Source: a virus (Duplodnaviria > Heunggongvirae > Uroviricota > Caudoviricetes). Taken from it: a stretch of 29,412 nucleotides of DNA. Where the stretch lies: IMG/VR virus record IMGVR_UViG_2609459833_000001, one strand, 5' to 3'. The stretch's first letter is position 1. Every line of letters starts with the position of its first letter. Below the pieces are notes generated by a model. That model ran no database searches and was not told the origin of the DNA. It saw only the letters and a program-made list of their open reading frames with translations. Positions 27,142 through 28,626 of this stretch are shown one piece after another. A program made the position numbers and the translations under genes.

Positions 27142-28626
27142 TTATTGTATTTCTGCTTCAGAATTTCCTGGGCAGTATATATTTTCTATTTTTTGTGGAG
27201 TGATCAGGTGATGTACAACTGCTTTATCTACACATAAATTAACTCCGGTGAGAGCTAATGTATGCCCATCACCATTTATTGTTAGTAACGGGCTGGAAAA
27301 TTTCTCTGCCATCTTACGGGCATTAATCCAGGGCGTTGTTGGGTCGTATTTGTGTGCTACAAACAGTAAACCAGAGGGCAGAACAGTATTTTTCAGGCGA
27401 GTTTTGTTCAGGTCGCTATGTATTGGCCATAATTCACAAAAATCAGGTGAATCGGAACGTCCATTGTCAAAGTTAATAGCCGGGAAGGCATTCGCAAGAG
27501 CGTCTTTTCGGGATTTTCGCTCTTCTGGTGTTAATTGCTCATCCCCCTGATCTACACAGAGGATTACCCCCGAAGCATCGCTTGACTCTTCTGAGGCTAT
27601 CGGAGCACTGAGCGCAGTTTCAATTTCATTACTGACAATCCCCTGAGAGAACTGGCGTATGGCAGTTGCAAGGGTTGGCCATGATGAACGCCATAGCAGA
27701 AGGTCTGTTGTTAATGATATGAGTTCATCTGAAGATATATTTTCTCCCTTACTGTCTAATAAAGGTTTGTGATGTAATTTTGATAATAGCTCATGGAACT
27801 GAGTTATTGCCTTATCTCTGTCTGAAGAAAGCGGGCAACTTTTTGTACGCGCACACCAGGATGCAAAGCGATCAAACGTTTCCTGATAACTCTGTGCCTG
27901 TTTGAGTTGCCATGTGAAGTTGTCCTCCAGGTCATCGATATCGACGACTCCATCAAGAACGATAGATCTTACGTTGTAGGGAAAACGTTCTGCATATAAG
28001 GCTGCAATTTGAGTTCCATACGAATACGCCACGGCTGTCAGTTGTTTATCCCCCAAGGCTTGCCTAATACGATCAATATCGTATACAGCCTCGTTAGAGC
28101 CGATATGGCGAATGACTTCGGCTCCGGTATTATGGATACAGGCATTAATTTTATTTAATACTTGTTGCTTTTCGGTTATGTTTTCCTGAGTCTCTGTATC
28201 TGATTGCCGGCAGTTTATTGTCGGAGTGGACTGTCCGACGCCTCGAGGATCAAATCCAATAATATCCCATGACTCACGAAGATTTGTGACTGGCCAGTCA
28301 AAGTTAATATAAGGATTTATGCCTGGTAACCCGGGACCACCACTTATTATCAGGATACTTCCTTTATGCTTGCTTTTTGCCGGCAATTTTGTCAACGCTA
28401 GTTTGACTTGTGATTTTTTTTCATAAGAAGCATCTCCGCCTGTGTCTGTATATTTTAATGGAACAGACAAATAACCACATAGTAAGTCAGGAGACGGTTT
28501 TTCCTCACCAAACCAGTGGTTGAATTGACTGGCCATACAGGATTGCCACTGTATCTGCTGGGCAGATACGGTTACTGGTAGAAGTAACGTTAAAACAACT
28601 TTGAAATGAGTAATTATTTTTCGCAT
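27142..28626 (-). CDS. Secreted alpha/beta-hydrolase, peptidase S33 / TAP-like (tripeptidyl or prolyl aminopeptidase-like) family
   Basis: 494 aa from MRKIITHFKVVLTLLLPVTVSA-QQ (Sec-type signal peptide, predicted cleavage after VSA). Nucleophile elbow AYSYGTQ (GxSxG-type), candidate Asp (KYDPTTP) and His (NGDGHTLAL) completing a triad. AT-rich. The ORF-track start at 28734 would run into IS2 sequence, so the 28626 ATG is preferred. Confidence 0.75.
   Translation of the reverse strand: MRKIITHFKVVLTLLLPVTVSAQQIQWQSCMASQFNHWFGEEKPSPDLLCGYLSVPLKYTDTGGDASYEKKSQVKLALTKLPAKSKHKGSILIISGGPGLPGINPYINFDWPVTNLRESWDIIGFDPRGVGQSTPTINCRQSDTETQENITEKQQVLNKINACIHNTGAEVIRHIGSNEAVYDIDRIRQALGDKQLTAVAYSYGTQIAALYAERFPYNVRSIVLDGVVDIDDLEDNFTWQLKQAQSYQETFDRFASWCARTKSCPLSSDRDKAITQFHELLSKLHHKPLLDSKGENISSDELISLTTDLLLWRSSWPTLATAIRQFSQGIVSNEIETALSAPIASEESSDASGVILCVDQGDEQLTPEERKSRKDALANAFPAINFDNGRSDSPDFCELWPIHSDLNKTRLKNTVLPSGLLFVAHKYDPTTPWINARKMAEKFSSPLLTINGDGHTLALTGVNLCVDKAVVHHLITPQKIENIYCPGNSEAEIQ

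What the first reader, a model, noticed from the sequence alone, without database searches (positions are those of the whole stretch)
27142..28626. Secreted S33-family (TAP-like) alpha/beta hydrolase as prophage cargo, directly abutting an IS2 end
The product has a clear Sec signal peptide and a serine-hydrolase triad arrangement typical of tripeptidyl/prolyl aminopeptidase-like enzymes, which are unusual in enterobacterial prophages. A periplasmic or secreted peptidase or esterase could act on host or competitor substrates, or be a virulence or fitness factor. Its start codon is only 82 bp from the IS2 terminus, so its native promoter may have been replaced or modified by the insertion.
Basis: partly seen in the sequence, partly recalled or inferred. 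Interest (0 to 1): 0.6.

Follow-up and report, generated by a model that had tools for sequence, protein, structure and literature searches.

The report
Exported Hip1-like hydrolase paired with ompT
The gene is a real, intact, exported serine hydrolase of the Tap/Hip1 branch of peptidase family S33; it is common phage cargo in E. coli, normally sits just downstream of the outer-membrane protease gene ompT, and here an IS2 insertion has cut it off from ompT.

Summary
Window 27142-28626 (minus strand) encodes an intact 494-aa protein with an N-terminal Sec-type signal peptide. It matches Pfam Abhydrolase_1 and the TAP-like C-terminal domain. Ser202, Asp428 and His455 align with the Hip1 triad of M. 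tuberculosis. An IS2 end starts 81 nt upstream of the ATG.

The gene is not unusual. It occurs in 1254 of 5426 complete E. coli genomes, including O157:H7 Sakai (ECs_1662, prophage Sp8). It also occurs in 11 sequenced temperate phages and on ColV-type plasmids.

In 1234 genomes ompT lies 186 bp upstream on the same strand. The omptin-hydrolase pair stays together and diverges in parallel, down to 70% (omptin) and 76% (hydrolase) amino-acid identity in OmpP-like cassettes. The hydrolase is under purifying selection (dN/dS about 0.13).

In this window IS2 splits that spacer, removing ompT and a conserved hairpin. It creates no recognisable hybrid promoter, and the best promoter-like site (TATATT at -41) is retained.

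The protein is most likely a periplasmic serine peptidase or esterase. Its substrate and any cooperation with OmpT are inferred, not shown. I rate it a new, uncharacterised member of a known family, of modest interest.

The parts
27142..28626 (-). CDS of the 494-aa exported Tap/Hip1-like alpha/beta hydrolase. The mature protein is about 472 aa, 52.5 kDa, pI 5.4.
28561..28626 (-). Signal peptide, residues 1-22: MRKIITHFKVVLTLLLPVTVSA, with predicted cleavage before QQ. There is no lipobox.
   Evidence: Inspection and hydrophobicity. The TVSA-Q/R motif is conserved while the n and h regions vary among cassette homologues. W27 and C30 are nearly invariant, and the Hip1 alignment begins at residue 21.
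28021..28023 (-). Codon of Ser202, the predicted nucleophile, in A-Y-S-Y-G-T.
   Evidence: Invariant in 71 homologues. Aligned to Hip1 Ser228.
27343..27345 (-). Codon of Asp428, the predicted triad acid, in YDPTTP after strand 420-425.
   Evidence: Invariant. Aligned to Hip1 Asp463. Its topological position is taken from the model.
27262..27264 (-). Codon of His455, the predicted triad base, in GDGHT after strand 447-450.
   Evidence: Invariant. Aligned to Hip1 His490.
27086..27121 (-). 14-bp hairpin 20 nt after the stop codon, the likely transcription terminator of the hydrolase gene.
   Evidence: minimum free energy -22.4 kcal/mol, z = -5.4
28627..28707 (-). The 81 nt that remain of the native 186-nt ompT-hydrolase spacer. 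It holds the weak SD GAGA and the promoter-like site CTTACC-N17-TATATT, with the -10 at -41.
28708..29412 (-). Right end of IS2: the IRR and the 3' part of the transposase gene, which is transcribed towards the hydrolase. The contig ends inside the element.
26653..26958 (+). Remnant of a tail-fibre assembly gene (tfa'). It belongs to the conserved cargo block MTase-tfa'-hydrolase-ompT.
25928..26596 (-). Class I SAM-dependent methyltransferase, an intact counterpart of K-12 ybcY. It is neighbouring cargo of unknown function.

Best explanation
The gene encodes a Sec-exported, disulfide-rich serine hydrolase that most likely resides in the periplasm. It belongs to the Tap/Hip1 cluster of peptidase family S33. 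Catalysis would use Ser202 (nucleophile elbow AYSYG), Asp428 and His455. The oxyanion hole would be formed by the backbone of Gly97 (GGPG) and Tyr203, beneath a large helical lid (about residues 230-410).

It is one half of a two-gene cargo cassette, omptin then hydrolase. Lambdoid phages carry this cassette between the tail-fibre genes and attP, and plasmids carry it too. Its most probable activity is cleavage of peptides or proteins in the cell envelope, with esterase activity possible as in Hip1.

In this contig an IS2 inserted into the omptin-hydrolase spacer. The hydrolase is therefore cut off from transcription coming from ompT. It must rely on the weak promoter-like sequence left in the last 81 nt, on read-through from the IS2 transposase gene, or on both.

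Shown: family membership, conserved catalytic residues, the cassette structure and the insertion. Inferred: periplasmic location, peptidase activity and the effect on expression.
For: Family and fold:
- Pfam Abhydrolase_1 and TAP-like domain match above cut-off.
- phmmer to Hip1 structures gives E=3.5e-51 over residues 21-475.
- The AF2 model has pLDDT 91.6. Its best Foldseek matches are Hip1 at TM 0.76-0.80, then TnmK1/K2.
- Hip1 and the tripeptidyl peptidases form one S33 cluster (PMC11878206).

Catalytic residues:
- S202, D428, H455 and G97 are invariant in 71 homologues at 27-82% identity.
- They align with Hip1 S228, D463, H490 and G110.
- They sit after strands 196-201, 420-425 and 447-450, the canonical positions.

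Export:
- Signal-peptide features are present.
- There are exactly 10 Cys, all conserved. Hip1 has 11 Cys and 5 predicted disulfides (PMC4022732).

Selection and expression:
- dN/dS is 0.13-0.14.
- ECs1662 (the hydrolase) and ompT are both in QT cluster 1 and both fall by a log2 change of about -2.5 to -2.7 around the transition to stationary phase in O157:H7 Sakai (PMC2241611).

Cassette:
- 1234 genomes have ompT, the 186-bp spacer and the hydrolase intact, out of 1254 that carry the gene.
- The same order is found in phages 2G7b and Turner and on an iro-bearing plasmid.
- OmpP-like omptins are paired with 76-79% identical hydrolases.

Insertion:
- The junction is seen.
- No terminator-like site lies between the end of the IS2 transposase gene and the ATG.
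Against: - No biochemical or genetic data exist for this protein, and I found no paper that characterises it.
- Triad geometry could not be measured because model coordinates are not exposed.
- Relatives with the same fold include non-peptidases (TnmK1/K2). Hip1 was first reported as an esterase, so the substrate class is uncertain.
- Residues lining the Hip1 S1 and S1' pockets differ here: K469 to I434, E113 to L100, R232 to Q206 (from the alignment and the residue list). Hip1 specificity therefore cannot be transferred.
- Homologues at 54% identity or less have no omptin neighbour.
- Most ompT-positive genomes lack the gene, so OmpT does not need it.
- All promoter-like sites in the spacer are weak, at 7-8 of 12 matches.
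Confidence: 0.8

Rival explanations
1. The hydrolase is a functional partner of the omptin. OmpT cuts cationic peptides or proteins at the cell surface, and the periplasmic Hip1-like enzyme degrades or processes the fragments or a shared substrate. On this reading the cassette is a two-step envelope proteolysis or peptide-resistance module, and the IS2 insertion uncouples the two genes.
For: - The adjacency is near-universal: 1234 of 1254 genomes.
- It persists through phage, chromosome and plasmid contexts.
- The two genes diverge in parallel down to OmpP-like pairs at 70% and 76% identity, with a conserved inter-gene hairpin.
- In the OmpP-type pair the spacer is only 92 nt, leaving little room for a separate promoter.
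- ECs1662 and ompT fall in the same growth-phase expression cluster.
- In Serratia a periplasmic peptide-binding protein gene (SBP_bac_5) follows a 45% homologue.
Against: - Linkage could be simple hitch-hiking of two neighbouring cargo genes.
- About 60% of ompT-positive complete genomes lack the hydrolase through deletion or replacement by appY.
- Published OmpT phenotypes are explained by ompT alone (PMC6854850).
- More distant homologues are never next to omptins.
- The hairpin followed by a T-rich run looks like a terminator between the two genes.
Confidence: 0.25
2. It is an esterase, lipase or lactonase acting on a small molecule or lipid, as the annotation 'putative lactone hydrolase' in two phage records suggests, and not a peptidase.
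For: - The alpha/beta-hydrolase fold is functionally promiscuous.
- Phage records call it a lactone hydrolase.
- Hip1 itself hydrolyses p-nitrophenyl butyrate.
- Several sources name homologues 'pimeloyl-ACP methyl ester carboxylesterase'.
- The pocket residues differ from those of Hip1.
Against: - The nearest characterised relatives by sequence and fold are peptidases: Hip1 and the Streptomyces tripeptidyl peptidases.
- The 'lactone hydrolase' and 'carboxylesterase' names are automatic annotations with no test behind them.
Confidence: 0.2
3. It is a prophage-encoded anti-phage or superinfection-exclusion factor that acts in the periplasm on incoming phage components.
For: - It is encoded in the moron region next to attR of temperate phages.
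- PADLOC holds a model described as 'TAP-like protein' (C3a206) that matches at E=6.8e-56 over the full length.
Against: - The PADLOC match is at family level, similar in strength to the Hip1 match, and there is no system-level context.
- I could not find what system that model belongs to.
- Chromosomal homologues in Serratia and Budvicia sit among ordinary metabolic or transport genes.
Confidence: 0.07

Closest known systems
Mycobacterium tuberculosis Hip1 (Rv2224c, CaeA), PDB 5UGQ / 7SFM / 9MD8
   Same: Both show full-length homology (E=3.5e-51, about 26-30% identity) and the same fold with a helical lid (TM 0.76-0.80). The Ser/Asp/His triad and the GGPG oxyanion glycine align. Both are cysteine-rich exported envelope proteins.
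   Different: The host is a Gram-negative and the gene is phage or plasmid cargo beside an omptin, not a chromosomal mycobacterial gene. The motif is AYSYG instead of GYSYG. Pocket residues differ (K469 to I434, E113 to L100, R232 to Q206), so the Lys-P2 / Leu-Gln-P1 preference and the GroEL2 substrate cannot be assumed. No activity data exist.
Streptomyces lividans tripeptidyl aminopeptidases Tap, SlpD and SlpE (MEROPS S33.002 group; source of the Pfam name 'TAP-like')
   Same: Both fall in the same S33 cluster as Hip1 (PMC11878206), carry the C-terminal PF08386 domain and are secreted or envelope-associated.
   Different: They were not compared directly here because no structure or sequence was in hand. 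Whether the E. coli enzyme removes N-terminal tripeptides is unknown.
TnmK1 / TnmK2 (tiancimycin biosynthesis), PDB 8E18 / 8G5T
   Same: They are the next best fold matches (TM 0.73-0.77, E=1e-23 to 1e-26) and are weakly related in sequence (E=4e-18 and 2e-8).
   Different: They are cytoplasmic tailoring enzymes of a natural-product pathway and are far less similar. They show that this fold is not always a peptidase.
Prolyl aminopeptidase (S33.001; TIGR01249)
   Same: It shares the same MEROPS family and a local match around the nucleophile elbow.
   Different: The score is 35.8 bits against a cut-off of 259.75, and TM is only 0.34-0.36. This protein is not a member of that subfamily.
E. coli K-12 DLP12 right end (ybcY'-tfaX'-appY-ompT-envY)
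   Same: It is the same chromosomal neighbourhood and cargo block: MTase, tfa remnant, ompT, envY, ybcH, nfrA. The K-12 gene order is from my own knowledge. appY downstream of ompT is also reported in PMC6854850.
   Different: K-12 has the regulator gene appY where this prophage type has the hydrolase.

Membership tests
alpha/beta-hydrolase superfamily (Pfam PF00561) | Profile match above the gathering threshold | tested here: met
   115.9 bits against 25.8, covering residues 91-460.
Tap/Hip1 cluster of peptidase family S33 | C-terminal TAP-like domain (PF08386) carrying the acid and the histidine | tested here: met
   54.2 bits against 21, covering residues 386-479.
Tap/Hip1 cluster of peptidase family S33 | Full-length homology to a characterised member | tested here: met
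   Hip1 E=3.5e-51 over residues 21-475. Foldseek TM 0.76-0.80.
Tap/Hip1 cluster of peptidase family S33 | Ser-Asp-His triad in that order, with a small-x-Ser-x-Gly elbow and a GGPG oxyanion loop | tested here: met
   S202 (AYSYG), D428, H455 and G97 are invariant in 71 sequences and align to Hip1 S228, D463, H490 and G110. The first Gly of GxSxG is Ala here.
Tap/Hip1 cluster of peptidase family S33 | Triad side chains within hydrogen-bonding distance in three dimensions | not testable with these tools
Tap/Hip1 cluster of peptidase family S33 | Peptidase activity that depends on the active-site serine | not testable with these tools
   This needs purified protein and an S202A control.
Sec-exported (SPase I) protein | Basic n-region, hydrophobic h-region, and small residues at -3 and -1 before the cleavage site | tested here: met
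   MRK, then VVLTLLLPVTV, then V-S-A|Q. No lipobox. Ten conserved Cys. This is rule-based inspection only; no SignalP-type predictor was available.
Prolyl aminopeptidase (TIGR01249 equivalog) | Score above the NCBIfam cut-off | tested here: not met
   35.8 bits against 259.75.
Phage moron / lysogenic-conversion cargo | Lies inside a phage genome but outside the structural and replication modules, with its own terminator and a different base composition | tested here: met
   It lies between the tail-fibre genes and attP/int in 2G7b and Turner. It lies inside annotated prophage Sp8. It has a terminator hairpin. GC is 0.43 against about 0.5-0.6 in the tail genes.
Known anti-phage defence systems (PADLOC) | Match to a defence-protein model within a complete system | tested here: inconclusive
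   There is a single family-level hit to C3a206 'TAP-like protein'. The system's identity and partners are unknown.

The most novel reading that the evidence does not exclude
Omptin plus Hip1-like hydrolase is an old, mobile, two-enzyme envelope proteolysis module shared by the OmpT and OmpP lineages. The periplasmic hydrolase would contribute to phenotypes so far credited to OmpT alone, such as degradation of host antimicrobial peptides or processing of envelope or host proteins. Strain differences in carrying it, or in uncoupling it through IS2, would then modulate virulence or fitness.
Probability: 0.2. Interest if true: 0.6.

Novelty: new member of a known kind. Interest (0 to 1): 0.35.

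Why it matters
OmpT is a well-studied virulence and biotechnology-relevant protease. Even so, the gene that follows it in about 40% of ompT-positive complete E. coli genomes, including O157:H7, has no described function that I could find. Its closest characterised relative, Hip1, is an immune-modulating virulence protease and drug target in M. tuberculosis.

If the E. coli enzyme acts on host or envelope proteins, or works together with OmpT, it would add a phage-borne factor to peptide-resistance and colonisation biology. If it does not, it is simply one more uncharacterised hydrolase among prophage cargo. The IS2 insertion seen here is a rare local variant and matters only for expression in this lineage.

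Tried and rejected
- Exact-junction search in one-genome-per-species contigs found nothing.
- No complete E. coli genome has this exact IS2 junction. The source could only be traced to a draft contig that ends inside IS2. Whether ompT lies beyond the IS2 is therefore unknown.
- I suspected the gene might be arlB of the arlABC peptide-resistance island. [quoted passage not shown]
- I looked for an IS2 IRR-derived hybrid promoter. Neither the consensus scan nor my own scan found one.
- I looked for omptin neighbours of homologues at 54% identity or less, in Salmonella, Serratia and Budvicia. There were none.
- Literature searches by protein accession, by locus tag and by 'ompT + hydrolase' terms found no functional study.
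- The Hip1 structure paper (PMC6033327) is not held.
- Triad distances could not be measured because no coordinates are available.
- The symmetrical 705-nt inverted IS2 arms looked at first like a composite element or an inversion. They are better explained as the ends of a draft contig inside a repeat.

Full report
**1. What is in the sequence**

The minus strand of window 27142-28734 holds one long ORF. The biological start is the ATG at 28626, which gives 494 aa (MRKIITHFKVVLTLLLPVTVSAQQIQWQSC...). RefSeq annotates a 1485-nt CDS of identical protein sequence as 'alpha/beta hydrolase'. The protein is identical to the representative of a cluster of 4002 member sequences.

The upstream extension to the GTG at 28734 runs into IS2 and is an artefact. 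Some phage records and PHROG phrog_20134 start the protein at Met31. That choice removes the signal peptide and is almost certainly wrong, because W27 and C30 are nearly invariant among homologues and the Hip1 alignment begins at residue 21.

A 14-bp hairpin lies 20 nt after the stop codon at 27086-27121 (minimum free energy -22.4 kcal/mol, z = -5.4). It is the likely terminator.

**2. The IS2 junction**

IS2 begins at 28708 with TGGATTTGCCCC. Similarity to IS-free E. coli genomes stops at 28707. The IS2 transposase reading frame (28719-29375, minus strand) points towards the hydrolase.

The window has 705-nt, 100% complementary IS2 arms at both ends. However, the window is an entire draft contig, JNRV01000053.1 of GCA_000704865.1. 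The symmetry therefore reflects contig ends inside a repeat, and nothing beyond IS2 can be seen.

The same junction occurs in a contig of a second assembly and in a metagenome scaffold. It occurs in none of 5426 complete E. coli genomes.

**3. What the protein is**

- Family match: Pfam Abhydrolase_1 scores 115.9 bits and the TAP-like C-terminal domain scores 54.2 bits, both above their gathering thresholds. NCBIfam prolyl-aminopeptidase models match only locally and far below cut-off.
- Closest solved structure: M. tuberculosis Hip1/Rv2224c, with E=3.5e-51 over residues 21-475.
- Model: an AlphaFold2 model built on 71 homologues is confident (pLDDT 91.6, pTM 0.91). Its best Foldseek matches are the Hip1 entries at TM 0.76-0.80, followed by TnmK1/K2. 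Prolyl aminopeptidases come only at TM about 0.35.
- Catalytic residues: S202 (AYSYGT), D428 (YDPTTP), H455 (GDGHT) and G97 (GGPG) are invariant in an alignment whose members are 27-82% identical to the query.
- Correspondence to Hip1: these residues align with Hip1 Ser228, Asp463, His490 and the oxyanion Gly110. They follow strands 196-201, 420-425 and 447-450, the canonical alpha/beta-hydrolase positions, with a helical lid between about residues 230 and 410.
- Classification: a recent study places Hip1 and the tripeptidyl peptidases together in one of three S33 clusters (PMC11878206).

I could not measure triad distances because model coordinates are not exposed.

**4. Export**

- The N-terminus has MRK, a hydrophobic core and V-S-A|Q, with no lipobox.
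- In diverged cassette homologues the n and h regions vary while TVSA-Q/R and the mature N-terminus are conserved.
- The mature protein has exactly ten cysteines, all conserved. Hip1 has 11 cysteines and five predicted disulfides (PMC4022732).

Together these argue for Sec export and oxidative folding, most simply in the periplasm. This is inference; no dedicated predictor or experiment was available.

**5. How common it is, and its real context**

- Complete genomes: the gene is in 1254 of 5426 complete E. coli genomes, at 99% identity or more in 1213 of the 1262 matching records.
- O157:H7 Sakai: it is ECs_1662 'hydrolase' inside annotated prophage Sp8.
- Phages: it is in 11 sequenced temperate phages, including 2G7b, ev243, Turner and the PhiR series.
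- Plasmids: it is on 17 plasmid records, mostly at 95% identity. The plasmid I examined carries the iro genes.

The claim that it is unusual in enterobacterial prophages is therefore not supported.

In IS-free genomes ompT lies 186 bp upstream on the same strand, followed by envY, ybcH and nfrA. This is the right end of DLP12-type prophages. 1234 genomes have the intact ompT-spacer-hydrolase junction. In phages 2G7b and Turner the order is tail fibre, MTase, tfa remnant, hydrolase, ompT, then the integrase. Both genes are therefore packaged cargo next to the attachment site.

In K-12 (my own knowledge of DLP12) and in a UPEC isolate (PMC6854850), appY occupies the hydrolase's position. CFT073-like genomes keep 161 nt of the spacer but lack the hydrolase and the tfa remnant, which indicates a deletion. 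PMC6854850 reports a gene 186 bp downstream of ompT in one UPEC isolate under the name ymcE. The spacing equals that of the hydrolase, so this may be a mislabel, but I could not check it.

**6. The omptin-hydrolase pair is conserved and diverges in parallel**

| Comparison with the chromosomal pair | Omptin identity (aa) | Hydrolase identity (aa) |
|---|---|---|
| ColV-type plasmid pair | 91.5% | 95.3% |
| OmpP-like pair (plasmid context, L027) | 70.2% | 75.9% |
| OmpP-like pair (island context, L028) | 72.7% | 79.2% |

- A hairpin directly after the omptin stop codon is conserved in the three spacers folded (-19 to -22 kcal/mol, z = -2.1 to -3.3), and the same stem sequence is present in the fourth.
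- dN/dS is 0.13-0.14 for the hydrolase and 0.08-0.15 for the omptin.
- Homologues at 54% identity or less (Salmonella, a Serratia plasmid, Budvicia, the S. marcescens chromosome) have no omptin neighbour. Several sit among transposase genes.
- In O157:H7 Sakai, ECs1662 and ompT both fall by a log2 change of about -2.5 to -2.7 around the transition to stationary phase, and both are in the same expression cluster (PMC2241611). The gene is therefore expressed.

**7. Effect of the IS2 insertion**

IS2 removes ompT, the hairpin and 105 nt of the spacer. My scan of the coding strand found only weak sigma-70-like sites, at 7-8 of 12 matches.

- The best site near the gene is CTTACC-N17-TATATT, with the -10 at -41. 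It lies in the retained 81 nt.
- A weaker site, TTGTAA-N17-TAACGT, is split by the insertion.
- No hybrid promoter is formed at the junction.
- No terminator-like site lies between the transposase stop and the ATG, so read-through from IS2 is possible.

A second, independent IS2 sits 44 bp further upstream in strain Eco_23-3571. It has the same orientation and the target duplication TTGTA. A third IS2 lies inside ompT in an O111:H2 strain. Whether expression changes is unresolved.

**8. Function**

The shown facts support an active, exported serine hydrolase of the Tap/Hip1 type. The substrate is unknown.

Hip1 pocket residues differ here: K469 to I434, E113 to L100, R232 to Q206. V254, Q267 and T466 are conserved as V228, Q243 and T431. 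I derived these from the alignment and the residue list in PMC13041806. Hip1's specificity therefore cannot be transferred.

The rivals I considered are:
- a functional partnership with the omptin, which is attractive because of the conserved linkage but is not required for OmpT function;
- an esterase or lactonase activity;
- an anti-phage role, suggested only by a family-level PADLOC hit to a model called 'TAP-like protein'.

**9. Verdict**

The gene is an already annotated but uncharacterised member of a known family. The conserved omptin-hydrolase cassette is the one lead worth an experiment.

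Noticed in passing
window 1-705 and 28708-29412: There are two 705-nt, 100% complementary IS2 ends. The window equals a whole draft contig (JNRV01000053.1, GCA_000704865.1), so these are contig ends inside a repeat. Whether the 28-kb segment is inverted or still next to ompT cannot be seen.
   Followed up: partly
window 706-1031 and 1016-1480: The left IS2 truncates the rrrD-type lysozyme gene, leaving only its C-terminal part. The Rz-like gene is frameshifted near 1320, where frame 1 switches to frame 3. The prophage lysis module is therefore defective.
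   Followed up: partly
window 25697-25828 and 26746-26877: This is a direct repeat at 87% identity, the 3' end of the tail-fibre assembly gene and of its remnant tfa'. The methyltransferase gene lies between them, which suggests module exchange by recombination at tfa.
   Followed up: no
window 25928-26596 (-): An intact class I SAM-dependent methyltransferase, the counterpart of the K-12 pseudogene ybcY. It matches phrog_2132 of unknown function and is conserved next to the hydrolase in phages and prophages.
   Followed up: no
L001 8880-8933 (-); also L014, L027, L028: A conserved hairpin (stem TCCCCGG...CCGGGGA followed by a T-rich run) lies directly after the omptin stop codon in OmpT-type and OmpP-type cassettes. 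It may be a terminator or attenuator between the omptin and the hydrolase.
   Followed up: partly
L003 4148-5675 (E. coli Eco_23-3571) and L004 (O111:H2 12A): There are independent IS2 insertions in the same neighbourhood. One is in the ompT-hydrolase spacer, in the same orientation, 44 bp further from the hydrolase, with target duplication TTGTA. The other is inside ompT.
   Followed up: partly
L040 (E. coli Z135-7), 3868-4098: CFT073-like genomes keep 161 nt of the ompT-hydrolase spacer and then run straight into the methyltransferase gene. The hydrolase and tfa' have been deleted there.
   Followed up: partly
window 27142-28626 (protein): PADLOC model PDLC01094 (C3a206, 'TAP-like protein') matches over the full length at E=6.8e-56. 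I could not find which candidate defence system it belongs to.
   Followed up: partly
L015 6001-7395 (phage 2G7b) and phrog_20134: Phage records and the PHROG profile start this protein at Met31. That omits the signal peptide and two conserved residues, W27 and C30.
   Followed up: yes
window 22600-23800 (+): The 1026-aa side tail-fibre gene contains a long Ala/Ser/Thr-rich low-complexity stretch. GC is about 0.60-0.62 and AT skew reaches 0.49. Spurious long ORFs lie on the opposite strand.
   Followed up: no
PMC6854850, section 3.5: The paper names the gene 186 bp downstream of ompT in UPEC isolate 'cystitis 6' as ymcE. The spacing is exactly that of the hydrolase, so the label is probably an annotation error.
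   Followed up: no
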